Shown piece by piece: positions 6,076-28,798 of a stretch of 64,000 nucleotides of DNA. The notes under the pieces are model-generated. The model saw only the letters and a program-made list of their open reading frames with translations, was not told the DNA's origin and did no database searches. The translations under genes were made by a program, and so were the position numbers. The stretch is from Comamonadaceae bacterium (GTDB lineage: Bacteria > Pseudomonadota > Gammaproteobacteria > Burkholderiales > Burkholderiaceae_C): contig JAACZV010000007.1 in NCBI GenBank assembly GCA_009996515.1, positions 10,482 to 74,481 of the forward strand. Direction: 5' to 3'. Positions within the stretch are counted from its first letter, which is position 1, and every line of letters begins with the position of its first letter.

Positions 6076-7959
6076 CTAAATCTCGACCTTGGAGCCCAGC
6101 TCGACGATGCGGTTGGTGGGCAGGTGCAGGAAGTCTGCGGCCGCGGCGGCGTTGCGGTGCATGCTGGCGAACAGCTTCTCGCGCCACAGCGCCATGCCCG
6201 AGCCTATGGTGGGGATGACGATGTCGCGGCTCAGGAAATAGCTGGTCTCCATGTCGTCCAGCAGCACACCCTGCTGCTTCAGCAGCGCCAGCGCCTCGGG
6301 CACGTCGGGTTCGTCCTTGAAGCCGAAGTGCAGCGCCACCTGCCAGCAGCTGTGGCCCAGCGCCTCGGCCTCGCAGCGCTGCTCCAGGCTGATCCACGGC
6401 ACCTCGTGGTGCTTGACGGTGACGAAGATGTTCTGCTCGTGCAGCACCTTGTTGTGCTTGAGGTTGTGCAGCAGCGCGTTGGGCGTCGTGCCCTTCTCGG
6501 ACGACAGGAACACGGCCGTGCCGGCCACGCGCAGCGGCGGGTTGACGAACACGGCCTCCAGGAAGGCAGTCAGCTCGATGGCGTCCTCGCGCAGCTTGTC
6601 GGACAGCTGCTTGCGGCCCTGCTTCCAGGTCAGCATCAGCGTGAACATCGCGATGCCGATCAGCAGCGGGAACCAGCCGCCGTGCAGCAGCTTGAGCAGG
6701 TTGGACGCGAGGAAGGTCACGTCGATGATGAAGAACAGGCCGGTGGCCGCCAGGCACAGCGCCAGCGGATAGCGCCAGCCGAAGCGGATGACGAAGAAGG
6801 TCATCACGGTCGTGATCGTCATGTCGATGGTGACGGCCACGCCGTAGGCGCCGGCCAGCTTGCTGGACGAGCCGAAGAAGACGACGGCCACCACCACCAG
6901 CGCGAACAGTCCCCAGTTGACGAAGGGCACGTAGATCTGGCCGGTGTCGCGCACGCTGGTGTGCAGCACGCGCAGCCGCGGCAGGATGCCCAGCTGTATG
7001 GCCTGCTTGGTGACGGAGAAGGCCGCCGTGATCAGCGCCTGCGACGCGACGACGGCCGCCGCCGTGGCGAGCAGGAACAGCGGGATCTCGGCCCAGGCCG
7101 GCGCGAGCAGAAAGAAGGGGTTCTTCACGCCCTCGGGGTTGTCCAGCAGCATGGCGCCCTGGCCGAAGTAGTTGATGACCAGGGCCGGCATGACGACGCC
7201 GTACCAGGCGATGCGGATGGGCTTCTTGCCGAAATGGCCCAGGTCGGCGTAGAGCGCCTCGCCGCCGGTCACCACCAGCACGATGGCGCCCAGCGCGACG
7301 AAGGCCACCCAGCGGTACTCCAGGCAGAAGCGCAGCGCGTACAGCGGGTTGACGGCGGCCAGCACGCGCGGGTTGTCGAACACATGCGGCAGGCCCAGCG
7401 CCGCCAGGCTCAGGAACCACACCAGCATGACCGGGCCGAAGGCCTTGCCTATGCCGCCGGTGCCGAAGCGCTGCACCGAGAACAGCCCGGCCAGCACCAG
7501 CAGCGAGACCGGCAGCACGGCGTCGTGGTAATCCGGCGCATAGACCTCGATGCCCTCGATGGCGCTGAGCACGGTCATGGCCGGCGTGATGACCGCGTCA
7601 CCGAAGAAGATCGCCGTGCCGAACAGCCCGACCGCCATCAAGCCGCGCCGCAGCCGCGGCCGGCCGTTCACGGCGTTGGTGGCCAGCGCCAGCATCGCGA
7701 TGAGGCCGCCCTCGCCGTTGTTGTCGGCGCGCAGGATCAGCAGCACGTACTTGACCGAGACGATGGTGGTCATGGTCCAGAACAGCAGCGACAGCACGCC
7801 GAGGATGTTGTCCGGCGTGGTGGCGACATGGCCGCCGTGGAAGACTTCTTTGAGGGCGTACAGCGGGCTGGTGCCGATGTCGCCATAGACCACCCCGAGG
7901 GCGCCTAGGGTCAGGCCCGCCAGCGCCGAGGGGCTGCGGGCCGCTTGGGAAGAACTCAC
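6076..7959 (-). CDS. kup: Potassium transporter Kup
   Basis: [35 protein letters not shown] and [10 protein letters not shown] motifs. Probable GTG start at 7959. Confidence 0.95.
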
Positions 7960-8104
7960 TGCACGAGCACCACCCTCGCGGGGTGGCGTTTGTTCGAAAG
8001 CGGCGATTCTCCGTCGGGCCGCCGCGTCTTGTGCGACGCAGCAAAACCACAACGCCCGGGCTTGACGCCCGCCGGGCGGCGGGCGTAGGCGTGGGCGGCC
8101 CGCC

Positions 8105-10123
8105 TCACCAGATGCGGATGCGCTCGGCCTCGGGCTTGAACATCTTGTCGCCCGGCCGGGTCTTGAAGACCTGGTGGAAGCCGTCGTGGTTGACGGCGGC
8201 GCCGTTGGCGCGGAACTCGGACGGCGAATGCGGGTCGGCCGTCAGCAGCCGCAGCTGGCGCTGCTCGCGCGACTTCTCGCGCCAGGCCTGCGACCAGCCG
8301 AGGAAGAAGCGCTCCTCGCCGCTGTAGCCGTCGATGACCGGCGCCGGCTTGCCGCCCAGCGAGCGCAGATAGGCCTTGTAGGCGATCTGCAGGCCGGACA
8401 GGTCGGCGATGTTCTCGCCCAGCGTCAGCCGGCCGTTCACATGCTTGCCGGGGATGGGCTCGTAGGCGTCGTACTGCGCCACCAGCTTGGCGCCTATGGC
8501 GTCGAAGGCCTTGCGGTCGGCCTCGGTCCACCAGTTGCGCAGCGCGCCGTCGCCGTCGAACTGGCTGCCCTCGTCGTCGAAGCCATGGCTGATCTCGTGG
8601 CCGATGATGGCGCCGATGGCGCCGTAGTTGACGGCGTCGTCGGCCTGGCTGCTGTAGAACGGCGGCTGCAGGATGGCAGCCGGGAAGACGATCTCGTTCA
8701 TCATCGGGTTGTAGTAGGCATTGACGGTCTGCGGCGTCATCAGCCACTCGCGCCGGTCCACCGGCTGGTCGGCCTTGGCGGCCTGGTGCAGCCAGCCGAA
8801 GCGGCCGGCCCGCAGCGCATTGCCCAGCGCGTCGCCGGCGCGCACCTCCAGCCCGGCATAGTCGCGCCAGGTCTCGGGGTAGCCGATCTTGACCATGTAC
8901 TTGGACAGCTTGTCCTGCGCCGCCGCCTGCGTGGCTGGCGTCATCCAGCTCAGCCCGCCGATGGAGTCCTTGTAGGCCGCCATCAGATTGCCCACCAGCG
9001 TCAGCATGCGGGCCTTGTCGGACGCCGGGAAGTAGCGCTGCACATAGGCCTGGCCGACCGCGTCGCCCAGCGCGCCATTGACGTCGGCGACGGCCTTCTG
9101 CCAGCGCGGCCGCTCGGCGGTGGCGCCGCTCAGCGCCGTGCCGCGGAAGGCGAAGCTGGCGTCGCGCACGGGGCGCGGCAGCACGCTGGCCAGGCTGTCC
9201 AGCGTGTGCAGCTTGGCGTACAGGCGCAGCTCGTCCAGCGGCGTCTGGCCCACCAGCCGGGCCAGGCCGATCGCGAAGCTGGGCTGTGACACCGACAGCT
9301 TCTGCAGCGCCGGCAGGCCGGCGGCCTTGAAGAAGCCCTGCCAGTCGAAGCCGGGCGCCTTCGCGGCCAGCTCGGCCGGCGTCATCGGGTTGTAGAGCTT
9401 GACGGGATCGCGGTTGGCGACCTGGTCCCAGTGCAGCTCGGCGATGCGGTGCTCCAGCGCCATCACGCGGCCGGCGGCGGCGGCCGGCTCGGCCAGGCCG
9501 GCCTCGCGGGCCAGCGTCTCCAGATAGGCCAGATAGGCGGCGCGGGCCTTGGCCATGCGCGCGTCGTCGGCCTTCAGGTAGTAGTCGCGGTTGGGCAGGC
9601 CCAGGCCGGCCTGCTGCACCAGCAGGCGGTTGACGCTGGGCTGCTTGAAGTCGGCGTCGATGTCCAGGCCGACCAGGCCGGCCACCTGCCCGGCGCGGGC
9701 ACCCAGCCAGGCCGCGAACTGCTCGCGGCTGGCGATCGCGTCGATGCCGTCCAGCAGCGGCTTGAGCGGCGCCATGCCGGCCTTGTCGATGGCCGCCAGG
9801 TCCAGATGGGCCGCGTAGTAGTCGACGATCTTGCGGGCCTCCGAGCCGGCCGGCTGCGGCGTCGCCGCCAGCGACTCGACCAGCTCGCGCACCCGCCGGT
9901 CCGACAGGTCGGCCAGTTCGACGAAGCTGCCGTAGGCGGGCTTGTCGGCCGGGATCTCGGTGGTCGCCAGCCAGTGGCCGTTGGCGGCGCGGAACAGGTC
10001 GTCCTGCGGGCGCACGGCGCGGTCGAAGCCGGCCAGGTCGAGGCCGGAGCGGGGCGAGGCGGCCAGCGCGGCGCCGCCCAGCAGCATCAACAGGGACAGG
10101 GTGGAGAGGCGGAAGACGTTCAT
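8105..10123 (-). CDS. M13 family metallopeptidase (exported)
   Basis: Signal peptide; [26 protein letters not shown] (HExxH), GENIAD and DPHSP motifs. Confidence 0.94.
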
Positions 10124-10227: not shown

Positions 10228-11493
10228 TCAGGCCGCCTCGGCCTCCGCCTGCGGGTCGGTGGCCTCCAGCTCGTAGCTGGCGGCCAGCATGGCCAGGCGG
10301 CCGATGACGCCGTACATGTAGAAGCGGTTGGGTGCGCTGGCGCCGGGCTTCTCGCCGGGGCGCGGCAGGTGCGGCGACTCGGCAAAGGCCAGCGGCACAT
10401 AGCTGGCACCGGGCGCGTTCAGGTTCTCGTCGATGCCGCGCTGGGCATGCACGCGATAGAAGCCGCCGACGACGTAGCGGTCCATGGTGTAGACCACCGG
10501 CTCGGCCACGGCCTCGTGCACGCGCTCATGCGTGGGCACGCCTTCCTGCACGATGACTTCCTGGCCCAGGTTCTCCGGCAGCGCGGCGGCCAGGCCCTCG
10601 ATGTCCTTGGCGTCGCGCACCGTCATGACGCCGCGGCCATAGCTGCCCACGTCGCTCTTGATGATGACGAAGGGCTTCTCGTTGATGCCGTATTCCTTGT
10701 ACTTGCGGCGCACCTTGGCGAGCTGGGTGTCGGCGGCCGTCTGCAGCGCCTCCAGGCCCTTGTGGCCACGCAGGTCCACGCCCTGGAACATGGGCGTGAT
10801 CAGCCAGGGGTCCATGCCCAGCAGCTTGCCGAAGCGCTTGGCCACCTCCTCGTAGGCGCGGAAATGCCGGCTCTTGCGCCGCACCGTCCAGCCGGCGTGC
10901 AGCGGCGGCAGCAGGTATTGCTCGTGCAGGCCCATCAGCTGCGGCGGCGTGCCGGCGGCGAGGTCGTTGTTGAGCAGGATGGTGCAGGGGTCGAAGCCCT
11001 TGAGCGTCAGGCGGCCGCGCTTGCGCACCAGCGGCTCGACGGTGATGCTGCCGCCGGTGGCGATCTTCAGCTCGGTAGGCTCTGTGACGGCCGCGTCCAG
11101 CGTGCCGAAGCGCACGTTCAGGCCGGCCTGGGTGAAGATGCGCGCCAGCGTGGCGAGGTTGTCCAGGTAGAAGCTGCAGTGCGCGCCGGTCTCGGGGATG
11201 ACCAGCAGGTTGCGCGCCTCGGGGCAGATCTTCTCGATGGCCGCCATGGCCGCCTGCACGGCCTGGGGCAGCATCTGCGGCGTCAGATGGTTGAAGCCGC
11301 CGGGGAAGAGGTTGGTGTCCACCGGTGCCAGCTTGAAGCCGGCATTGCGCAGGTCCACCGACGCGTAGAAGGTGGGCGTGTGCTCCATCCATTCCAGCCT
11401 GAACCAGCGCTCGGTCGCCGGCATGGACTCCAGGACGCGGGCCTCCAGCTCGTTGATGGGGCCGTTCAGGGCGGTGATCAGATGCGGAACCAT
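10228..11493 (-). CDS. gshA: Glutamate--cysteine ligase (betaproteobacterial GshA type)
   Basis: MVPHLITAL...SVDLRNAGFKLAPVDTNLFPGGFN, VQEGVPT, GGFYRVH, NLNAPG. Confidence 0.93.
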   Translation of the reverse strand: MVPHLITALNGPINELEARVLESMPATERWFRLEWMEHTPTFYASVDLRNAGFKLAPVDTNLFPGGFNHLTPQMLPQAVQAAMAAIEKICPEARNLLVIPETGAHCSFYLDNLATLARIFTQAGLNVRFGTLDAAVTEPTELKIATGGSITVEPLVRKRGRLTLKGFDPCTILLNNDLAAGTPPQLMGLHEQYLLPPLHAGWTVRRKSRHFRAYEEVAKRFGKLLGMDPWLITPMFQGVDLRGHKGLEALQTAADTQLAKVRRKYKEYGINEKPFVIIKSDVGSYGRGVMTVRDAKDIEGLAAALPENLGQEVIVQEGVPTHERVHEAVAEPVVYTMDRYVVGGFYRVHAQRGIDENLNAPGASYVPLAFAESPHLPRPGEKPGASAPNRFYMYGVIGRLAMLAASYELEATDPQAEAEAA

Positions 11494-21419: not shown

Positions 21420-21443
21420 CGATGGCGTCTCGCGCAGGGGATC

Positions 21444-21507
21444 GATGAGCGCCGTTGGGAAACGATCCGAGCCTGGGGGCATCCAAACCCTCGCAGCGCT
21501 CCTCGGA
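21444..21507 (-). ncRNA. SAH riboswitch
   Basis: Minus strand TCCGAGGAGCGCTGCGAGGGTTTGGATGCCCCCAGGCTCGGATCGTTTCCCAACGGCGCTCATC matches the remembered SAH-riboswitch pattern (GAGGAGCGCTGC...CCAGGCTC...AACGGCGCTC). P1 is CCGAG/CTCGG and the pseudoknot is GAGCGC/GCGCTC. It ends 24 nt before the metH ATG. Confidence 0.88.
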
Positions 21508-21670
21508 TGAGGCCGGAATTCTACGCAGCCCCTCCTTCGCCGGCATGCAAGCCTGGCTTGTGCGCATGCTCGGCCCCGAACTGCACGACGCGCTGCAAGC
21601 CATGGCAAGGGGCGGCCCGCAGGCCGCCCCGGTCGCGCAGCGCCGACGCGGACGCCGACGCCGCACACAC

Positions 21671-22396
21671 TCACCGCCTCGCCGAGCCGTTGGCCGAGGC
21701 GTCCAGGGCGACGCCGTTGTCGGCACGCGCGGCCTTGGCCGAGGCGCCGCCGGTGGCGTGGGCGCCGGTGTCTTTGCCGCCGACGGCCTGCGGCGCCGGC
21801 TGCTCGGGCGCAGCGGCCGGGGCCGCCGGCTTGGCGGGCGTGGTGGCCGCCGGCGCAGCCGGCGTGTCGCCCCGCTTCAGCGCGCCGTTCAAGCCGCCGC
21901 TGCCCTGGCCGGCCAGGGCGCCGCCGCCTGCCGTGCCGTTCAACGCGCCGCCGCCGTCGGCACCGCCGCTGGCATTGCCGGCACTCGAGGCCAGCGAGTC
22001 CTTGGCCTCCTGGCCGGCGCTCTTCAGCATGCCCGCCTGGCCGGTCGCCGTCGACTTCACGTCGGCCGCGCCTCCCTTGGCCGCCTCGGCCTGGCCTCGG
22101 GCGGCGGCCTTCGCATCGCCGACCTTGCCGGTGGCGGCATCCTGGACGCCGACGACGGCGCCCTGGGCGCGGTCCAGCGCGCCCAGGGCCCGCGAACCAT
22201 CGGCCGAGCCCCCGGCACGGCCGCTGGCCTTGCCACCCAGCTCCAGCTGGCGGGGCTGCAGCGCGCCGTTCAGGCCGCCGCTCAGCCCGCCGCCACCACC
22301 GCCGAGCAGGCCGGCGTGGGCGTTGGAGGCGATGAGGCCGGCGGCCATGGCGAGGGTGCCCAGCTGCGTGCGGAGGGTGAGGCGGGTTGCAAACAT
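21671..22396 (-). CDS. Secreted Gly/Ala-rich low-complexity protein
   Basis: 241-aa ORF with a signal peptide (ASNAHA/G), repeated [15 protein letters not shown] units and a PAAPAA linker; an upstream ECF-type promoter supports expression. Confidence 0.75.
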
Positions 22397-22453
22397 GAGG
22401 GATCTCCGTGGGTCGGTTCGGAAGAGCCAGCCATTCCGGCCCTTTCACCGATC

Positions 22454-22481
22454 ACAACGACGCGCGGGGAGATTTCCGTCC
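22454..22481 (-). promoter_or_regulatory. Candidate ECF-sigma promoter for the Gly/Ala-rich gene
   Basis: Minus strand GGACGGAAAT-ctccccgcgcgt-CGTTGT; same spacing and near-identical boxes as the site at 23861. Confidence 0.65.
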
Positions 22482-22536
22482 CGACCGAGGTGTAACAAGC
22501 TGCGCCAAGGGCTGGTCCGCACGCCGGCCGCCGGCC

Positions 22537-23820
22537 TCAACGGGCCTGGCGCGCCTGCAGGCGCTCGGGCAGCACCCGCAGGTCCTCGGCCACCAGGCCG
22601 CGGCCGTAGACGGGGTCGCGGCCCGACGCGCCCAGGTCCACGGCGCCGGATGCCAGCCGCTCGACGGCGGCGGCCGCCGCCGCCACGTCCGGCTCGCGCA
22701 GCTCGGCGGCCAGCAGGCCGGCCACCAGCGGCGCCGCGAACGAGGTGCCGCGCGCGATGGCGTAGCCGCCACCGCTGCGCGCCACCGCCATGTCGGACCC
22801 GGGGGCCGACCACATCACCTGCGGCCCCTGCGCCGCCTCCGGCAGCACGCGGCGCGACGGCGTCACGCCGGTCACACCCACGACGCCGGCATAGGACGCC
22901 GGGTACAGCGGCGGTGCGGCCGGGCCGTCGTTGCCGACCGCCGCCACCAGCAGATGGCCGCGCCCGACCAGCGCCGCGACGCCCTGCTCCAGCAGCCGGT
23001 TCGACGGGCCCACCAGGCTGACGTTGATGACGGCCACGCGTTCGCGCGCCAGCCAGGCCAGCGCGCGCACGACCTCCTCGGCCGAGCCGCCATCGGGCCG
23101 GTCGCAGTACACGTCGGCGGCGAACAGCTCGGCCTTCACGGCCGCGCCGGCAAAGCCACGGTCGCTGCCGACCAGCAGCGACGCGACAGCCGTGCCATGC
23201 TCGCTGGGCACGGCGCTACCGCCGCAGCCGAAGCTGGCGCCGCCGGCATTGCGCAGCGCCGCATGGCGGCGGTCCACGCCGCCGTCGATGAGGCCCACGC
23301 GCAGCGCGCCGCGCCTGGGGGCGGCCGCCGGCCCGGCAAGCGCCGCCACCTCGCCGCTGCGCGCATAGAGATGGTTGAAGTCGGCCTGCAGCCCCGGCTG
23401 GGCGGCGCGCAGCTTGTCCAGCGCCTCCGCCGTGTCCAGGCCCGGCGGCACGCGCAGCACGACCGCGCGCAGCGCCAGCTCGGGCCAGGCCTCCTCGCGC
23501 AGCGGCGCCAGGCCCAGGGCCGCCGCCGCGGCCAGCGCGGCCTCGCTCGGCGCCAGCAGCACCAGCTCGCGCCGGCGGATCGGCTCGCCGCGCGGGTCGG
23601 CCTCGATGAGGTCCGGGTGGCGGCCCAGCAGCTCGCGCAAGCGCGCCAGGCGCGAGTCCAGCCCCTGGGTGGACGCCGACAGCAGCTCGGGCAGGGGTGG
23701 CACGGCGCGGTCGACCAGGCCCGGCAGGCGCGACACGCCCGGCAGTTGCGGCAGGCGCAGCTGGGCCTGGGCCGGCAGGGCGAAAGCGGCGCTCAGGGAC
23801 AGGGCAAGCAGGGATTTCAT
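22537..23820 (-). CDS. S8 family serine peptidase (subtilase), exported
   Basis: Signal peptide; catalytic D (VGLIDGGVD), H (EHGTAVASLL) and S (GTSFAAP); oxyanion N (AAVGNDG). Confidence 0.92.
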   Translation of the reverse strand: MKSLLALSLSAAFALPAQAQLRLPQLPGVSRLPGLVDRAVPPLPELLSASTQGLDSRLARLRELLGRHPDLIEADPRGEPIRRRELVLLAPSEAALAAAAALGLAPLREEAWPELALRAVVLRVPPGLDTAEALDKLRAAQPGLQADFNHLYARSGEVAALAGPAAAPRRGALRVGLIDGGVDRRHAALRNAGGASFGCGGSAVPSEHGTAVASLLVGSDRGFAGAAVKAELFAADVYCDRPDGGSAEEVVRALAWLARERVAVINVSLVGPSNRLLEQGVAALVGRGHLLVAAVGNDGPAAPPLYPASYAGVVGVTGVTPSRRVLPEAAQGPQVMWSAPGSDMAVARSGGGYAIARGTSFAAPLVAGLLAAELREPDVAAAAAAVERLASGAVDLGASGRDPVYGRGLVAEDLRVLPERLQARQAR

Positions 23821-23860
23821 GGCGCGCGGCGACGTCGAGTGAGGATAACGAGCGCGGGGC

Positions 23861-23888
23861 GGAAGAAAATCCATGCCTCGTCCGTTGT
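23861..23888 (+). promoter_or_regulatory. Candidate autoregulatory ECF promoter of the sigma gene, overlapping a divergent site for the S8 gene (23845-23872, minus)
   Basis: Plus strand GGAAGAAAAT-ccatgcctcgtc-CGTTGT; minus strand GGATTTTCTT-ccgccccgcgct-CGTTAT. Both place CGTT 22 nt after the first G of GGA. Confidence 0.62.
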
Positions 23889-23898
23889 CCATGCATCG

Positions 23899-24396
23899 AT
23901 GCACGAAAGCCTTGCCGAGCTTCGCCAGGAGATTGCCGCGCTGCTGCCGCGGCTGCGCCGTTTCGGCCGCACGCTGGCCCCGGCCCGCGAAGACGCCGAC
24001 GACCTCGTGCAGGTCGCCATCGAGAAGGCGCTGACGCGCACCGACCAGTGGACGCCTGGAACGCGTCTGGACAGCTGGATGTTTCGCATCATGCAGAACG
24101 CGTGGATTGACGAGCTGAGGGCGCGCGAACGGCGCGGCCAGACCTTTTTGCCCGAGGAGGCCGGCGAACAGGTCGGCGACGACGCCAAGTCCGGCGCGCC
24201 GCTGGACGCCATCCTCGTGCGCCGGGCCGTGGCCAGGCTCAGCGCTGAGCACCGCGCCGTGGTGGGCCTGGTGCTGGTCGAGGGCCTGAGCTACCAGGAG
24301 GCGGCCGAGACACTGCAGGTGCCGGTCGGCACCGTCACCAGTCGCCTGGCGCGGGCCCGCGAGGCGCTGCAGGAGTTGCTGGGAGAGTGGCCATGA
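23899..24396 (+). CDS. ECF RNA polymerase sigma factor (PrtI-like)
   Basis: LLPRLRRFGRTL...DADDLVQ...LDSWMFRIMQNAWID (region 2); GLSYQEAAETLQVPVGTVTSRLARAR (region 4). Confidence 0.92.
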   Translation: MHESLAELRQEIAALLPRLRRFGRTLAPAREDADDLVQVAIEKALTRTDQWTPGTRLDSWMFRIMQNAWIDELRARERRGQTFLPEEAGEQVGDDAKSGAPLDAILVRRAVARLSAEHRAVVGLVLVEGLSYQEAAETLQVPVGTVTSRLARAREALQELLGEWP

Positions 24397-25004
24397 GCCT
24401 GAACGACGAACAGCGGCTGAGGGCCGAGCGCCGCCGCATGGCCGCGGCCTTCGACGATGTGCTGGACGAGCCGGTGCCGGACCGCCTCAAGGCCTTGCTG
24501 GCCGAACCGGCGCCCGCGCCGCAGGTGGTGGACCTGGGCGCCGTGCGTGCGCAGCGCCGCGGCATGGCCCGCTGGGCCGCCTGGGGCGGCATGGCCGCGA
24601 CGCTGGTGCTGGGCACGCTGATCGGCATGCGGCTGACGCCGGCGGACGATGACGGCCAGGGCCGCCTGCTCGCCCGCGGCGCCCTCGCCAAGGCACTGGA
24701 CCAGCAACTGGCCAGCGCCCCGGCCGGCGGCCCGGTGGCTGTGCAGATCAGCTTCAAGGCCAGGGACGGCCGCTTCTGCCGCAGCTTCTCGATGGCCGCG
24801 TCGGCCGGCCTGGCCTGCCGCGAGCGCGATGGCGCCTGGGCGCTGCAGCAGGTCGCGGCCGTGGCGCCGGCAGCGGGCGGCGGCATGCGCCAGGCGGCCA
24901 GCAGCCTGCCGCCCAGCGTGCTGGGCGCGGTGGACGCCCTGATGGCCGGTGACGCGCTGAATCCCGCGCAGGAGAAGGCCGCGCGGGACGGCGGCTGGCG
25001 TTAG
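24393..25004 (+). CDS. Putative transmembrane anti-sigma factor
   Basis: ATGA-coupled to the sigma gene; DEPVPDRL motif, one TM helix (WAAWGGMAATLVLGTLIG), then a periplasmic domain with a Cys pair (RFCRSF...GLACR). Confidence 0.8.
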   Translation: MSLNDEQRLRAERRRMAAAFDDVLDEPVPDRLKALLAEPAPAPQVVDLGAVRAQRRGMARWAAWGGMAATLVLGTLIGMRLTPADDDGQGRLLARGALAKALDQQLASAPAGGPVAVQISFKARDGRFCRSFSMAASAGLACRERDGAWALQQVAAVAPAAGGGMRQAASSLPPSVLGAVDALMAGDALNPAQEKAARDGGWR

Positions 25005-25300
25005 GCCAGCGGCACGGCCTGGAAATGTTCCACGCTCGGCGGGCCGGCGAAGAAGCTGCCGATGTGGCCGCGCCAGACCGCGAACAGCGGCCCGTCGCGG
25101 AAGCCCTGCATGTGGTCTTCCAGCGTCTGCCATTCGACCAGCAGCACATAGCGCTCGGGCGACTCGACGCCATGCTGCACGCGGGCGCTGATGAAGCCCG
25201 GCGAGCGCGACAGCGCGGTGGCGATGCCGATCCTGAGGGCGGCTTCGAAGGCGGCCTGCTGGCCGGGCTGGATGCGGAAGTCGGCGATTTCGAGAATCAT
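25001..25300 (-). CDS. Antibiotic biosynthesis monooxygenase (ABM) family protein
   Basis: MILEIADFRIQPGQQAAFEAA...ESPERYVLLVEWQTLEDHMQGFR; 99 aa. Confidence 0.88.
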   Translation of the reverse strand: MILEIADFRIQPGQQAAFEAALRIGIATALSRSPGFISARVQHGVESPERYVLLVEWQTLEDHMQGFRDGPLFAVWRGHIGSFFAGPPSVEHFQAVPLA

Positions 25301-25370
25301 GGCCGGCAGTGTCGCTCGGCTGGCATGCACCGCCGCTCCGGTCGGGCATCAAGCCGCCCGGCGCGCGGCC

Positions 25371-26009
25371 TCAGCGCGGCATTTCCAGGCTGCGCCAGAT
25401 CAGGCCCGTGATCAGCTGGCGGGCGCGCTCGAAGTCTTCGTCGTCCAGCGCGGGCTTGCCCATGAAGAGCGAGAACTGCGCGCCCAGGTCCGCATAGGCC
25501 TGCGTGGACGACCACAGCAGGAACATCAGGTGCGTGAAGTCCAGGTGGCGGATCAAGCCCTCCCTGGCCCAGCGCTCGAAGCGCTCCACGTCGGCATGCA
25601 GCAGCGGCATGACCTGGGCCTTCAGCACGTCCTGGTAGCGCGGCGCGCCGGCCATGATCTCGCGTGTGAAGACGGCATTGCCGCTGGGGCGCTCGCGGCT
25701 GAAGCGCAGCTTGACGTCCACATAGGTGTGGATGGCCGCCTCGGGCTCGTCGGCCTCGGCGATGGCGCTCATGTTGGCCATCCATTCACCCATCACGCTG
25801 TCCAGCACCGCACGGTAGAGCTCTTCCTTGCTGGGCCAGTGGTAGAGCAGGTTCTGGCGCGACAGGTCCAGCGCCGCGGCGATGCTGTCCAGGCTGACGC
25901 CCTCGAAGCCGAAGCGCGCGAACTGGCGCTCGGCCTCGGCAAGGATGGCCTCCTGCTTGCGCAGGGTGGCGGCGCGCGGCGTGCGCGTCACGGGGGCGAT
26001 GTCAGTCAT
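25371..26009 (-). CDS. rutR: TetR family regulator, RutR-like
   Basis: TetR HTH (ILAEAERQFARFGFEGVSLDSIAAALDLSRQNLLYHW); RutR-type C-terminus (FTREIMAGAP, STQAYADL); divergent from the pyrimidine operon. Confidence 0.85.
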   Translation of the reverse strand: MTDIAPVTRTPRAATLRKQEAILAEAERQFARFGFEGVSLDSIAAALDLSRQNLLYHWPSKEELYRAVLDSVMGEWMANMSAIAEADEPEAAIHTYVDVKLRFSRERPSGNAVFTREIMAGAPRYQDVLKAQVMPLLHADVERFERWAREGLIRHLDFTHLMFLLWSSTQAYADLGAQFSLFMGKPALDDEDFERARQLITGLIWRSLEMPR

Positions 26010-26052
26010 GGGCTGAATTCTGATGGCGTGCACCAAGACGATGCTGCGGGTT

Positions 26053-26068
26053 TTTACGCTTCGGTCAA
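26053..26068. promoter_or_regulatory. RutR-box-like operator
   Basis: TTTACG-CTTC-GGTCAA resembles TTGACC-N4-GGTCAA and lies between rutR and preT. Confidence 0.65.
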
Positions 26069-26115
26069 TTTTTACGGGGAAGTAATGTTTGCCTGTTTTC
26101 GCCAGGGAGACTGCC

Positions 26116-27498
26116 GTGGACCTTGCAGATTTGAAATCGGGCCGGCTCGCGCCGGATGACTATGCCCGCAATTTCGCGGAGGCCCACCCGCCGCTGAACC
26201 GGGCCCAGGCGCTGATCGAGGCCGAGCGCTGCTACTACTGCCATGACGCGCCCTGCCAGACGGCCTGCCCCACCGGCATCGACATCCCCAGCTTCATCCA
26301 ACGCGTCGCCCAGGACAACGTGCGCGGCGCGGCCGAGGCCATCCTGACGGCCAACCCGCTGGGCGGCATGTGCGCCCGCGTCTGCCCCACCGAGGTGCTG
26401 TGCGAGCAGGCCTGCGTGCGCAACAGCCACGAGAGCAAGCCCGTGGAGATCGGCCTGCTGCAGCGCTACGCGGTGGAGGGCCACCTGGCCAACCCCGGCA
26501 AGCCCATGTTCACACGCGGCATGCCCACGGGGCGGCGCGTCGCCGTGGTGGGCGCCGGCCCGGCGGGCCTGGCCGCGGCCCACGGGCTGGCCTGGCGCGG
26601 GCATGAGGTGGTGCTGTTCGACGCCGCGGCCAAGCTGGGCGGCCTGAACGAATACGGCCTGGCCACCTACAAGGTGGCCGGCGGCTTTGCGCAGCGCGAA
26701 GTCGACTGGCTGCTGTCCATCGGCGGCATCACGCCGAAGCTGAACTGCCGGCTGGGCCGCGACATCACGCTGGACGGCCTGCTGGCCGAGTACGACGCGG
26801 TCTTCCTGGGCCTGGGCCTGCAGGGCGTCAACGCGCTGGGCATCGCCGAGCCCCAGTTGCCGGGCCTGCGGTCCTCGTACAGGGATGCGGTGGACTTCAT
26901 CGCAGAGCTGCGCCAGAGCGCGCCCGAGATCGTGCCGGTGGGCCGCCGGGTCGTCGTCATCGGCGGCGGCATGACGGCCGTGGATGCGGCCGTGCAGAGC
27001 AAGCTGCTGGGCGCCGAGCAGGTCACCATGGTCTACCGCCGCGGGCCCGAGAGCCTGTCCGCCTCGCTGCATGAGCAGCACTGGGCGCAGACCCATGGCG
27101 TGACCATCCGCTGCTGGGCGCGGCCGCTGGCCGTCGTCGCCGAGGGCGGCGTGCTGCGCGGCATGCGCTTCGCCGCGACCCGGCTGGACGGCGGCCAGCT
27201 GGTGGACAGCGGCGAGCAGTTCACCCTGGAGGCCGACCTGGTGCTGCGCGCCATCGGCCAGACCTTCGAGGCCGCGCCCATCGGCGCCGGCATCGAGCTG
27301 CAGTCCGGCCGCATCAAGACCGATGCCGACGGCCAGACCAGCCTGGCCCGCGTCTGGGCCGGCGGCGACTGCCGCGCCGGCGGCCGCGACCTGACCGTGG
27401 AGGCCGTGGAGCATGGCAAGCGCGCGGCCATCGCCATCGACCGCCACCTGGGCCTCGCCACCGCCCGCCACCTCGACAAGGAGGCCGCCCATGGCTGA
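26116..27498 (+). CDS. preT: Dihydropyrimidine dehydrogenase subunit PreT
   Basis: CYYCHDAPCQTACP and CARVCPTEVLCEQAC Fe-S motifs; GAGPAG; VIGGGMTAVD. GTG start after the AGGGAGA RBS. Confidence 0.92.
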   Translation: MDLADLKSGRLAPDDYARNFAEAHPPLNRAQALIEAERCYYCHDAPCQTACPTGIDIPSFIQRVAQDNVRGAAEAILTANPLGGMCARVCPTEVLCEQACVRNSHESKPVEIGLLQRYAVEGHLANPGKPMFTRGMPTGRRVAVVGAGPAGLAAAHGLAWRGHEVVLFDAAAKLGGLNEYGLATYKVAGGFAQREVDWLLSIGGITPKLNCRLGRDITLDGLLAEYDAVFLGLGLQGVNALGIAEPQLPGLRSSYRDAVDFIAELRQSAPEIVPVGRRVVVIGGGMTAVDAAVQSKLLGAEQVTMVYRRGPESLSASLHEQHWAQTHGVTIRCWARPLAVVAEGGVLRGMRFAATRLDGGQLVDSGEQFTLEADLVLRAIGQTFEAAPIGAGIELQSGRIKTDADGQTSLARVWAGGDCRAGGRDLTVEAVEHGKRAAIAIDRHLGLATARHLDKEAAHG

Positions 27499-28798
27499 CC
27501 TGAGCACCGATTTCCTGGGCATCAAGAGCCCCAACCCCTTCTGGCTGGCCTCGGCCCCGCCCACCGACAAGGAGGTCAATGTGCGCCGCGCCTTCGAGGC
27601 CGGCTGGGGCGGCGTGGTCTGGAAGACGCTGGGCGAGGACCCGCCGGTGGTCAACGTCAACGGCCCGCGCTATGCCACGCTGTGGAGCCAGGACCGGCGC
27701 GTCATCGGCTTCAACAACATCGAGCTGATCAGTGACCGGCCGCTGCAGGTCAACCTCGACGAGATCCGCCGCGTGAAGCGCGACTTCCCGGACCGGGCCA
27801 TGGTCGTGTCGCTGATGGTGCCGGTGAACGAGCAGAGCTGGAAGGCCATCCTGGCCCGCGTGGCCGACACCGGCGCCGACGGCGTGGAGCTGAACTTCGG
27901 CTGCCCGCACGGCATGAGCGAGCGCGGCATGGGCTCGGCCGTGGGCCAGGTGCCGGAGTACATCCAGCAGGTCACCGAATGGTGCAAGCAGCACACCAGG
28001 CTGCCGGTCATCGTGAAGCTGACGCCCAACATCACCGACGTGCGCTACCCGGCGCGCGCGGCCAAGGCCGGCGGCGCGGATGCGGTCAGCCTCATCAACA
28101 CCATCAACTCGGTCATGGGCGTGGACCTGGACCGCATGACGATGAGCCCGGTCACCGACGGCTGGGGCTCGCACGGCGGCTATTGCGGCCCCGCCGTCAA
28201 GCCCATCGCGCTGAACATGGTGGCCGAGATCGCCCGCGACGCCGCCACGGCCGGCCTGCCCATCTCGGGCATAGGCGGCATCACCACCTGGCGCGACGCA
28301 GCCGAGTTCATCGCCATGGGCTGCGGCACGGTGCAGGTCTGCACGGCCGCCATGGTCTACGGCTTCAAGATCGTGCAGGACCTGTGCTCGGGCTTGAGCA
28401 ACTTCATGGACGAGAAGGGTTACGCCAACCTGAAGGCCTTCGAGGGCAAGGCGGTTCCCACGGTCAAGAACTGGAACCAGCTCAACCTCAACCATGTCGA
28501 CAAGGCCGTCATCGACCAGGCAAGCTGCATCCAGTGCGGCCGCTGCCACGTGGTGTGCGAAGACACCTCGCACCAGGCCATCTTCGCGACGAAAGACGGC
28601 AAGCGCCACTTCCACGTCAACGAAGCCGAGTGTGTCGGCTGCAACTTGTGCGTGTCGATTTGCCCCGTCCCTGGCACCATCACGATGCGTGCCCTCCAGC
28701 CGGGCGAGACCGATGCGCGCACCGGCCGCGTCATCGATGGCAGCTACGCCAACTGGACCACGCATCCGAACAACCCCATGCGCCAGAGCTGCGCCTGA
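27491..28798 (+). CDS. preA: Dihydropyrimidine dehydrogenase subunit PreA
   Basis: [29 protein letters not shown] and two C-terminal CxxCxxC ferredoxin motifs. Confidence 0.94.

What the first reader, a model, noticed from the sequence alone, without database searches (positions are those of the whole stretch)
21671..25004. ECF sigma/anti-sigma + subtilase + Gly/Ala-rich secreted protein: a self-contained extracytoplasmic module
Seen: a coupled ECF/anti-sigma pair diverges from an exported S8 protease with an intact D/H/S triad. The protease gene is followed by a secreted low-complexity protein, and all three units carry a matching promoter motif. Known: PrtI/PrtR-like ECF pairs have been linked to extracellular protease control in pseudomonads, and TM anti-sigmas are typically released by proteolysis. 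Inference: the ECF co-induces a protease and a probable substrate or structural protein, with the protease either maturing the Gly-rich protein or feeding back on the anti-sigma. I know of no characterised four-gene system of this form.
Basis: partly seen in the sequence, partly recalled or inferred. Interest (0 to 1): 0.72.

Follow-up and report, generated by a model that had tools for sequence, protein, structure and literature searches.

The report
ECF26 sigma module with protease
This is a real, widely conserved four-gene stress-signalling cassette: a sigma factor, its membrane anti-sigma factor, an exported subtilisin-type protease and a secreted glycine-rich disordered protein. It belongs to an already catalogued sigma-factor group (ECF26) whose function is still unknown.

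Summary
The window (a Roseateles/Pelomonas relative) encodes a translationally coupled ECF sigma and single-pass anti-sigma pair. An exported pre-pro-subtilase (D179/H208/S360) is transcribed divergently from it, followed by a secreted Gly/Ala-rich disordered protein. All three transcription units carry GGAx-N18-CGTT promoters, and these are the only strong matches in the 64 kb.

In 145 species-level loci from Alpha-, Beta- and Gammaproteobacteria:
- sigma and anti-sigma flank the protease in 134 of 134 testable loci;
- the Gly-rich gene is present in 122 of 131;
- no fifth gene is conserved.

The system is not new in kind. It matches group ECF26 in promoter consensus, anti-sigma architecture and the documented "divergent serine protease" context. 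In the distant homologue on Sinorhizobium meliloti pSymA (RpoE6/EcfR6/SMa0142/SMa0146), sigma overexpression induced the protease and a secreted low-complexity protein. No function or phenotype was found there.

New details from this analysis:
- the conserved Gly-rich fourth gene, with an invariant mature N-terminus;
- a shared 12-bp -35 element that serves both divergent promoters;
- a covarying 5'UTR hairpin on the Gly-rich mRNA;
- a truncated, NepR-like anti-sigma domain in Roseateles.

Whether the protease processes the Gly-rich protein or cleaves the anti-sigma remains untested.

The parts
23899..24396 (+). ECF sigma factor (165 aa, sigma-2 plus sigma-4), ECF26-like
   Evidence: It hits Pfam Sigma70_r2 and Sigma70_r4_2. 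It is 42% identical to S. meliloti RpoE6. Its best solved relative is Bartonella EcfG, 5UXX, at E 4e-22.
24387..25004 (+). Single-pass anti-sigma factor. The start is probably the ATG at 24393, which overlaps the sigma stop as ATGA. It has a NepR-like sigma-binding helix (aa 20-40), a TM helix near aa 63-83, and a periplasmic domain at about aa 86-201 with invariant C131 and C144.
   Evidence: It hits Pfam NepR at 29.7 bits. Orthologue starts are shown. The AF2 periplasmic domain has pLDDT around 90 and no PDB fold match. The domain family contains 1441 clusters, almost all 200-300 aa with the domain at the C-terminus.
23847..23886 (.). Bidirectional ECF promoter element AACG-N10-GGAAGAAAATCC-N10-CGTT. 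The 12-bp core is the -35 for both the sigma promoter (+, 23861-23886) and the S8 promoter (-, 23872-23847).
   Evidence: The full AACG-N10-GGA-N6-TCC-N10-CGT element was found in 71 loci; the core was GGATTTTCTTCC in most Burkholderiales loci scanned, with variants.
22537..23820 (-). Exported pre-pro-subtilase (S8). The layout is: signal peptide 1-20, disordered 21-41, helix 43-67, I9-like propeptide about 72-151, linker 159-171, catalytic domain 174-410 (D179, H208, N297, S360).
   Evidence: It hits Pfam PF00082 and aligns to subtilisin DY. The AF2 model has pTM 0.80. Its best PDB match is unautoprocessed pro-subtilisin E, 3WHI, at E 2e-15 over 376 columns.
22456..22481 (-). ECF-type promoter of the Gly-rich gene (GGACGGAAATCTCCCCGCGCGTCGTT)
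   Evidence: It scores 18.8 bits on the weight matrix. An equivalent GGAAGnAn-N14-CGT(T/A) lies upstream of 120 of 130 Gly-rich genes.
22424..22442 (-). Conserved 7-bp GC-rich hairpin with a 5-nt loop, near the predicted 5' end of the Gly-rich mRNA
   Evidence: In 51 sequences, 88% of cells are paired against 28-48% in slid controls. There are 75 double-change cells against 38 in shuffles, exceeded in 0 of 500 shuffles. There is no Rfam match.
21671..22396 (-). Secreted Gly/Ala-rich, predicted disordered protein (241 aa). Signal peptide cleavage is predicted at AHA|GLLGGG.
   Evidence: An ORF with a signal peptide and a conserved mature N-terminus lies downstream of S8 in 122 of 131 loci. It has no family match and only 4 weak homologues.
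21609..21630 (-). GC-rich hairpin (GGGGCGGCC-TGCG-GGCCGCCCC) 40 nt after the Gly-rich stop codon; a probable terminator that separates the module from the SAH riboswitch and metH
   Evidence: Read directly from the sequence. The consensus terminator scan did not detect it because it lacks a T-run.

Best explanation
This is an ECF26-type extracytoplasmic signalling cassette.

At rest, the membrane anti-sigma holds the sigma factor through its cytoplasmic NepR-like helix. An unknown envelope cue is read by the anti-sigma's periplasmic domain, which carries a probable C131-C144 disulfide, and inactivates it. By analogy with other single-pass anti-sigmas, the likely route is regulated proteolysis.

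The freed sigma then directs RNA polymerase to three GGAA-N17/18-CGTT promoters:
- its own, giving positive autoregulation from a nearly leaderless transcript;
- the divergent pro-subtilase gene, through the same 12-bp -35 element read on the opposite strand;
- the Gly-rich gene, whose mRNA begins with a conserved hairpin.

Both products are exported by Sec. The subtilase autoprocesses its I9-type propeptide. The most likely arrangement is that the protease and the disordered Gly-rich protein work as a pair in the periplasm or outside the cell, with the Gly-rich protein as the protease's dedicated substrate or partner.

Shown or well supported: gene identities, module conservation, promoter and hairpin conservation, and sigma-dependence in the S. 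meliloti homologue.

Inferred: the input signal, the mode of anti-sigma inactivation, and the protease-Gly-rich relationship.
For: Domains and triad.

Module conservation in 145 unique loci from Sphaerotilaceae/Comamonadaceae, Oxalobacteraceae, Steroidobacteraceae, Arenimonas, Caulobacterales and Hyphomonadaceae:
- sigma and anti-sigma are present in 134 of 134 loci, divergent in 133;
- the Gly-rich gene is present in 122 of 131;
- all four genes are present in 114 of 121;
- no other gene is conserved in more than 8 of 62 non-Roseateles loci once antisense ORFs inside the module genes are set aside.

Promoters: they are conserved at fixed spacing and are the only strong matches in the window. 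The motif equals the ECF26 consensus, -35 GGAATA and -10 CGTTTT (PMC6180224; PMC13492112 Table 4).

Homology to the pSymA locus: sigma 42%, S8 35%, anti-sigma about 30% identity.

Experiment in S. meliloti: RpoE6 overexpression induced rpoE6, ecfR6, SMa0142, SMa0146 and SMa0148, with mapped transcription starts (PMC6180224).

SMa0146 shares four features with the Gly-rich gene: the same promoter type, a 5'UTR hairpin, a signal peptide and low complexity.

SMa0142 itself carries a Gly-rich stretch between its signal peptide and propeptide. This is a fusion-type hint that the Gly-rich element and the protease act together.

The nearest sub-threshold NCBIfam models are dedicated processing subtilases: mycosin, QhpE and PatA.
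Against: - There is no expression data for this organism or its close relatives.
- The enzyme-substrate link rests only on co-occurrence, co-regulation and one fusion-like case.
- The Gly-rich gene is absent or unrecognisable in about 7% of loci.
- In S. meliloti the gene sits elsewhere, and its product is Ser/Asn-rich rather than Gly-rich, so homology of the fourth gene is not demonstrated.
- The RpoE6 deletion had no phenotype in the conditions tested (PMC6180224).
- The Roseateles anti-sigma lacks the first ~40 residues of the class I anti-sigma domain present in most relatives, so its binding mode is uncertain.
Confidence: 0.55

Rival explanations
1. Protease-driven feedback. The subtilase is the site-1 protease for the anti-sigma. 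Once made, it cuts the anti-sigma's periplasmic domain and hands it to a site-2 protease, locking the sigma on. The Gly-rich protein acts as a competing decoy substrate or inhibitor that limits or times the loop.
For: The protease is linked to the sigma/anti-sigma pair more strictly (134 of 134 loci) than the Gly-rich gene is (122 of 131). The protease and sigma share one -35 element, so they are wired together. Both the protease and the anti-sigma's sensor domain are periplasmic. The activation mechanism of ECF26 anti-sigmas is explicitly unknown (PMC6180224).
Against: - The same type of periplasmic domain is described for ECF26 anti-sigmas that have no protease partner, such as EcfR1 and EcfR4, which respond to sulfite (PMC6180224, PMC3511301). 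The domain family is large, at 1441 clusters.
- A sigma-induced activator would give runaway positive feedback.
- Conserved, divergently transcribed, sigma-dependent neighbours of ECF genes are usually outputs.
- There is no direct evidence for this model.
Confidence: 0.17
2. Two independent outputs. The sigma switches on a general degradative or scavenging periplasmic or extracellular protease and, separately, a protective disordered (LEA-like or hydrogel-like) envelope protein. There is no enzyme-substrate relationship between them.
For: The Gly-rich protein has its own promoter and 5'UTR element. Its middle region varies widely in length (about 160-407 aa) and in sequence. Gene order differs in S. 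meliloti and in L125. The catalytic domain resembles ordinary subtilisins at about 30% identity.
Against: - The two genes stay adjacent across three proteobacterial classes while all flanking genes change.
- The mature N-terminus (G/Q)LLGG is conserved in an otherwise free-drifting protein, which implies a specific interaction.
- The protease is a minimal enzyme, with no extra domains typical of nutritional proteases.
- The S. meliloti protease carries its own Gly-rich segment.
Confidence: 0.2
3. The Gly/Ala-rich ORF is a GC-rich reading-frame artefact, and the shared motif is chance.
For: The window is about 70-76% G+C and full of long spurious ORFs. The ORF has no family hit. The window's own protein was not returned by the protein database search.
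Against: An ORF with a signal peptide, a conserved mature N-terminus, a Shine-Dalgarno sequence, its own conserved promoter and a covarying 5'UTR hairpin occurs at the same position in 122 of 131 genomes, including lower-GC taxa. The motif scores far above all shuffles.
Confidence: 0.01

Closest known systems
Sinorhizobium meliloti pSymA RpoE6-EcfR6 with serine protease SMa0142 and hypothetical protein SMa0146 (group ECF26; Lang et al. 2018, PMC6180224)
   Same: - The S8 protease is divergent from a sigma/anti-sigma operon.
- The proteins are homologous: sigma 42%, S8 35%, anti-sigma about 30% identity, including the periplasmic two-Cys domain.
- The promoters are of the same type, GGAATA...CGTT.
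- A secreted low-complexity protein has the same promoter type and a 5'UTR hairpin.
- Sigma-dependence of the neighbouring genes was shown by overexpression.
   Different: - The low-complexity gene lies after the anti-sigma, not after the protease, and its product is a Ser/Asn repeat rather than Gly-rich.
- It lacks the (G/Q)LLGG N-terminus.
- rpoE6 itself has an RpoD/RpoH-like promoter, and there is no shared -35 element.
- Extra local targets exist (SMa0139, SMa0148).
- The protease lacks the conserved C199/C239 pair and carries an Asp/Gly-rich N-terminal extension.
EcfG-NepR-PhyR general stress response of Alphaproteobacteria (ECF15)
   Same: - EcfG is the closest solved sigma (5UXX).
- The promoter has the same form, GGAAC-N16/17-CGTT.
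- The anti-sigma carries the NepR motif FxxVLxEPVPxRL and scores above the Pfam threshold.
- Cross-talk between RpoE6 and RpoE2 is reported (PMC6180224).
   Different: - The anti-sigma here is membrane-anchored with a periplasmic sensor domain.
- No PhyR-type partner is conserved nearby.
- The module occurs in Beta- and Gammaproteobacteria.
- The regulon appears local rather than global.
Regulated intramembrane proteolysis of single-pass anti-sigmas (RseA/DegS/RseP; RsiW/PrsW/RasP)
   Same: The anti-sigma has the same topology, and the logic of signal-triggered release is expected to be the same. ECF26 anti-sigma C-terminal domains are said to resemble that of RsiW (PMC6180224).
   Different: No site-1 protease is known for ECF26. 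A subtilase has not been described in that role. Here the protease is itself a sigma target.
Dedicated processing subtilases encoded beside their substrates (mycosin MycP1-EspB, QhpE-QhpC, LanP and PatA leader peptidases)
   Same: These are compact S8 catalytic domains encoded next to a secreted and partly disordered substrate. They are the best sub-threshold NCBIfam matches.
   Different: All scores are far below the family cut-offs. There is no T7SS, quinohemoprotein or RiPP context. The putative substrate here is a 160-400 aa low-complexity protein.
PrtI/PrtR of Pseudomonas fluorescens
   Same: An ECF sigma and a membrane partner are linked to the control of an extracellular protease (from general knowledge; not checked here).
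   Different: The controlled protease there is a metalloprotease (AprX), not an S8 enzyme. No homology or shared gene context was established here.

Membership tests
ECF sigma group ECF26 (Staron 2009 / ECF classification 2.0) | [quoted passage not shown] | tested here: met
   Pfam Sigma70_r2 and Sigma70_r4_2 hits in a 165 aa protein.
ECF sigma group ECF26 (Staron 2009 / ECF classification 2.0) | Assignment by the group's own HMM (ECFfinder / ECF Hub) | not testable with these tools
   The models are not available here. As a proxy, the sigma is 42% identical (E 2e-35, 120 bits) to RpoE6, which ECFfinder places in ECF26 (PMC6180224). That score is higher than its match to EcfG 5UXX (82 bits).
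ECF sigma group ECF26 (Staron 2009 / ECF classification 2.0) | [quoted passage not shown] | tested here: met
   The anti-sigma start overlaps the sigma stop. The TM helix and C-terminal domain are present. The anti-sigma domain is truncated to its NepR-like helix in this window, whereas most orthologues have the full domain with weak zf-HC2 hits.
ECF sigma group ECF26 (Staron 2009 / ECF classification 2.0) | Target promoter consensus -35 GGAATA and -10 (C)GTT(TT), with autoregulation | tested here: met
   The sites show GGAAGAAA or GGAATAAA ... CGTT(G/T)T upstream of sigma, S8 and the Gly-rich gene. The consensus is taken from PMC6180224 and PMC13492112. Function as a promoter is inferred, not measured here.
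ECF sigma group ECF26 (Staron 2009 / ECF classification 2.0) | Subgroup context: a divergently transcribed serine protease gene | tested here: met
   The arrangement is divergent in 133 of 134 loci. The pSymA locus has the same arrangement.
EcfG/NepR/PhyR system (ECF15) | A small soluble NepR anti-sigma and a PhyR anti-anti-sigma encoded nearby | tested here: not met
   The anti-sigma is a 205-aa transmembrane protein. No additional conserved neighbour exists.
EcfG/NepR/PhyR system (ECF15) | Restricted to Alphaproteobacteria | tested here: not met
   Most loci are from Burkholderiales and Steroidobacteraceae.
Subtilase family S8 (subtilisin-like, with I9 propeptide) | An Asp-His-Ser triad in that order, an oxyanion Asn, and an N-terminal beta-alpha-beta-beta-alpha-beta propeptide | tested here: met
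   D179, H208, N297 and S360 are invariant in 45 sequences. In the AF2 model the propeptide, about residues 72-151, has pLDDT 97. The best PDB hits are unprocessed pro-subtilisins. Catalytic activity was not measured.
Anti-sigma factors inactivated by regulated proteolysis (RseA/RsiW type) | Signal-dependent site-1 cleavage in the periplasmic domain, followed by RseP/RasP cleavage | not testable with these tools
   Only the topology matches. There are no cleavage data.
PrtI/PrtR-type protease regulators | Homology to PrtI and PrtR, and control of an aprX-type metalloprotease | not tested
   No reference sequences were compared. The protease here is S8, not a metalloprotease.

The most novel reading that the evidence does not exclude
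The subtilase is the long-sought site-1 protease of ECF26-type anti-sigma factors. The Gly-rich disordered protein is its co-induced decoy or inhibitor. Its conserved (G/Q)LLGG N-terminus would dock on the protease or on the anti-sigma sensor domain. Together they would form a self-contained proteolytic feedback timer, a mode of ECF activation not described before.
Probability: 0.12. Interest if true: 0.75.

Novelty: new member of a known kind. Interest (0 to 1): 0.42.

Why it matters
ECF26 is a large proteobacterial sigma-factor group. Its protease-linked branch has no known signal, function or activation mechanism. The only experimental study, on S. meliloti RpoE6, found the regulon but no phenotype.

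This analysis shows that the branch is a compact four-gene cassette conserved across Alpha-, Beta- and Gammaproteobacteria. It defines a previously unremarked secreted Gly-rich partner, with a conserved N-terminus, its own promoter and an RNA hairpin. This narrows the problem to a few direct experiments: does the protease act on the Gly-rich protein or on the anti-sigma?

The shared -35 bidirectional promoter and the naturally truncated, NepR-like anti-sigma domain may also interest people who build orthogonal ECF switches or study how NepR-type anti-sigmas arose.

Tried and rejected
- **Transcript evidence.** No RNA runs hold the window.
- **Fold of the anti-sigma periplasmic domain.** The model is confident, but no PDB match was better than E 0.58.
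- **Family assignment of the Gly-rich protein.** Pfam and NCBIfam found nothing, even at E = 1 in Pfam. A homologue search found only four weak, unnamed proteins.
- **Rfam match for the 5'UTR hairpin.** None was found.
- **Standard promoter and terminator scans.** No sigma-70 promoter-like site and one terminator-like site (21754-21767, +), which is no more than the ~1 expected from shuffles.
- **ECF classification supplement.** The group descriptions are not held in the library, so formal ECF Hub subgroup assignment was impossible.
- **EcfG/NepR membership.** Considered because of the NepR Pfam hit and the 5UXX match. Rejected because the anti-sigma is membrane-bound, there is no PhyR, and the taxa are wrong.
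- **A fifth conserved gene.** None was found.
- **Other regulon members in the window.** None were found.


Full report
**What is in the window**

The region lies in a 70-76% G+C genome. Its genes are 76-93% identical to those of Roseateles/Pelomonas species.

- **Anti-sigma factor.** Its stop codon overlaps the start of a 203-205 aa anti-sigma factor (24387/24393-25004, +). This protein has a cytoplasmic helix that scores above threshold for Pfam NepR, one transmembrane helix, and a C-terminal periplasmic domain.
- **Protease.** Seventy-eight bases upstream of the sigma gene, on the other strand, starts a 427-aa S8 peptidase (22537-23820). It has a Sec signal peptide and the triad D179/H208/S360 with oxyanion residue N297.
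- **Gly-rich protein.** Next on that strand is a 241-aa Gly/Ala-rich ORF (21671-22396) with a signal peptide ending AHA|GLLGGGGGG. It has no family match.

**Structure predictions**

The AlphaFold2 model of the protease (pTM 0.80) has these parts:
- a signal peptide and a disordered stretch;
- a long helix;
- a beta-alpha-beta-beta-alpha-beta propeptide with pLDDT 97;
- a flexible linker;
- the catalytic domain.

Its best PDB matches are unprocessed pro-subtilisin E, pro-Tk-subtilisin and fervidolysin, aligned over the propeptide as well as the catalytic domain. It is therefore a classical pre-pro-subtilase.

The anti-sigma model has a confident periplasmic alpha/beta domain (pLDDT about 90), but it has no recognisable solved relative (best E 0.58). 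Its two invariant cysteines, C131 and C144, sit opposite each other on adjacent strands of a predicted beta-hairpin. A disulfide is therefore likely; this is an inference.

A search with this domain alone finds 1441 clusters at 50% identity. Nearly all are 200-300 aa proteins with the domain at the C-terminus. It is thus a dedicated anti-sigma sensor domain.

**Promoters**

All three transcription units carry GGAx-N18-CGTT(G/A)T. The sigma and protease promoters are back to back and share one 12-bp -35 element. It reads GGAAGAAAATCC on one strand and GGATTTTCTTCC on the other, within AACG-N10-core-N10-CGTT at 23847-23886.

This core was GGATTTTCTTCC in most Burkholderiales loci examined, from Roseateles to Massilia, with variants such as GGATTTTATTCC in some. 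The proteins in those loci are only about 50% identical. Steroidobacteraceae keep the sigma-side motif with small changes.

The Gly-rich gene has its own copy roughly 50-90 nt upstream of its start codon in 120 of 130 loci. In this window its -35 reads GGAC instead of GGAAG.

A weight matrix built from the orthologous sites gives 39.7, 36.8 and 18.8 bits for the three window sites. The next-best site in the 64 kb scores 12.8 bits, and nothing exceeds 12 bits in 20 shuffles. Within the window, therefore, the predicted regulon is the module itself.

In the S. meliloti homologue, the mapped transcription start lies 9 nt after CGTT. Applying the same spacing here, the sigma mRNA would have a leader of only about 4 nt. 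This is an inference.

**Conservation**

Two profile scans of one genome per species returned 558 and 366 relatives of the protease. The best 80 of each were fetched, giving 145 unique loci.

| Test | Result |
|---|---|
| Sigma and anti-sigma present, where upstream sequence suffices | 134 of 134 |
| Sigma/anti-sigma divergent from the protease | 133 of 134 (L125 is on the same strand) |
| Signal-peptide-bearing Gly/Ala/Ser-rich ORF follows the protease, where downstream sequence suffices | 122 of 131 |
| All four genes present | 114 of 121 |

The taxa span:
- Sphaerotilaceae/Comamonadaceae: Roseateles, Ideonella, Rhizobacter, Methylibium, Rhodoferax, Ramlibacter, Caldimonas, Piscinibacter and Rubrivivax;
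- Oxalobacteraceae: Massilia, Pseudoduganella, Duganella and Janthinobacterium;
- Steroidobacteraceae, and Arenimonas;
- Alphaproteobacteria: Brevundimonas, Phenylobacterium, Asticcacaulis, Hyphobacterium and Hyphomonadaceae.

The flanking genes of the window (metH, an ABM monooxygenase and a RutR-like regulator) are conserved only within Roseateles. Among 62 other loci, no further gene family recurs in more than 8 once antisense ORFs inside the module genes are set aside.

**The Gly-rich protein**

Across taxa it varies from about 160 to 407 aa and drifts freely in sequence. It keeps three features:
- a signal peptide;
- a mature N-terminus (G/Q/V)LLGG followed by a Gly-rich tract;
- a low-complexity Ala/Ser/Thr/Gln-rich remainder.

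This pattern fits a disordered protein whose N-terminus makes a specific contact.

Its mRNA carries a conserved 7-bp GC hairpin with a 5-nt loop immediately after the predicted start (window 22424-22442, -). In 51 diverse sequences:
- 88% of cells pair, against 28-48% when the partner is slid;
- all seven pairs show compensatory changes;
- the covariation score is 0.525 against 0.239 in shuffles, exceeded in 0 of 500.

Rfam has no such family. Its role, whether in mRNA stability or as a binding site, is open.

**Comparison with what is known**

The sigma's best solved relative is an EcfG sigma (5UXX, E 4e-22). The promoter resembles the EcfG consensus. However, the anti-sigma is membrane-bound, no PhyR partner is present, and most carriers are not Alphaproteobacteria. 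The module is therefore not an EcfG/NepR/PhyR system.

The decisive link is Lang et al. 2018 (PMC6180224). [quoted passage not shown] I fetched that pSymA locus. Its sigma is 42% identical to the window's, its protease 35%, and its anti-sigma about 30% to the Massilia/Steroidobacteraceae anti-sigmas (27% to the window's own). The anti-sigma match includes the LDEPVP helix and the two-cysteine periplasmic domain.

The published ECF26 consensus is -35 GGAATA and -10 CGTTTT (PMC13492112 Table 4). It matches the motif found here.

In S. meliloti, RpoE6 overexpression raised rpoE6 (log FC 4.5), ecfR6 (3.6), SMa0142 (4.7) and SMa0148 (6.5). SMa0146 was named among the prominent targets.

SMa0146 is a signal-peptide-bearing (Ser-Ser-Asn)n low-complexity protein. 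It has a GGAATAG...CCGTT promoter and a 5'UTR hairpin. It is the positional and architectural counterpart of the Gly-rich gene, although it is placed after the anti-sigma. SMa0142 itself has an Asp6 run plus a Gly-rich stretch between its signal peptide and propeptide.

No function or phenotype was found for RpoE6. Preliminary data say it does not respond to sulfite, unlike its paralogues RpoE1 and RpoE4 (PMC3511301).

**How it most likely works**

The well-supported part is the circuit: an anti-sigma-gated ECF26 sigma that autoregulates and drives two exported products.

The least certain part is what those products do. I favour a protease-partner pair, for these reasons:
- the two genes remain adjacent across three classes;
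- the disordered protein keeps a specific N-terminus;
- the protease is a minimal processing-type enzyme;
- one lineage fuses a Gly-rich stretch to the protease.

The main rival is that the protease cleaves the anti-sigma, giving feedback activation. Against this, ECF26 anti-sigmas without a protease partner are described as sharing a similar periplasmic C-terminal domain (PMC6180224; not checked by sequence here). No data exclude either model.

**Verdict**

It is a member of an already catalogued kind (ECF26 with a divergent serine protease), and a homologue has been probed experimentally. It is not categorically new.

The value added here is the conserved fourth gene, the shared -35 bidirectional promoter, the 5'UTR hairpin and the truncated anti-sigma domain in Roseateles. 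Together with a concrete experimental plan, these address a sigma-factor branch whose function is still unknown.

Noticed in passing
window 21440-21510 (-): An SAH riboswitch (Rfam RF01057, 60.9 bits against a gathering score of 37) lies directly upstream of metH (18711-~21460, -). It is an ordinary, known arrangement and marks the boundary of the module.
   Followed up: partly
window 24387-24500; loci L001-L022, L033, L052: The anti-sigma of Roseateles/Pelomonas, one Ramlibacter MAG and one Ideonella strain lacks the first ~40 residues (LMAYADGELD..., helix 1 of the class I anti-sigma domain) that almost all other orthologues have. What remains is the NepR-like helix. This looks like repeated natural truncation towards a NepR-type minimal anti-sigma.
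   Followed up: partly
L163 (S. meliloti pSymA) 7423-8823 (-) and 10313-10773 (+): SMa0142 has an Asp6 run plus a Gly-rich segment between its signal peptide and its I9 propeptide. SMa0146 is a secreted (SSN)n repeat protein with an ECF26-type promoter and a 5'UTR hairpin (CGGACCG-AAGAAC-CGGTCCG), like the Gly-rich gene of the window.
   Followed up: partly
L046 2952-4256; L109 ~6180-7024; L123 ~6312-7195: The protease reading frame in L046 contains an internal stop. The Gly-rich genes in L109 and L123 appear split by frameshifts. These are MAG assemblies, so the cause may be decay or sequencing error.
   Followed up: no
L125 3481-6173: This is the only locus where sigma and anti-sigma lie on the same strand as the protease, upstream of it, rather than divergent.
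   Followed up: no
L010 7284-8220; L015, L135, L146, L148: In L010 another gene is inserted between the protease and the Gly-rich gene. In four other loci no Gly-rich gene was recognisable although downstream sequence was available.
   Followed up: no
window 25001-28798: An ABM-family monooxygenase gene (25001-25330, -) overlaps the anti-sigma stop by 4 nt in convergent orientation. Beyond it lie a RutR-like TetR regulator (25371-26036, -) and genes that look like preT/preA (dihydropyrimidine dehydrogenase; read from the translations only, no family search run) (26089-28798, +). These are unrelated to the module.
   Followed up: no
L016 4796-8040 (Pelomonas aquatica): The orthologous locus is held at 100% of sampled words in many small runs labelled as RNA of another organism. 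This is consistent with Pelomonas being a common reagent contaminant.
   Followed up: partly
window 21671-22396 (-): The protein database search did not return the window's own Gly-rich protein. Gene callers may therefore miss or mis-start this low-complexity ORF, which could explain why the fourth gene has gone unremarked.
   Followed up: no
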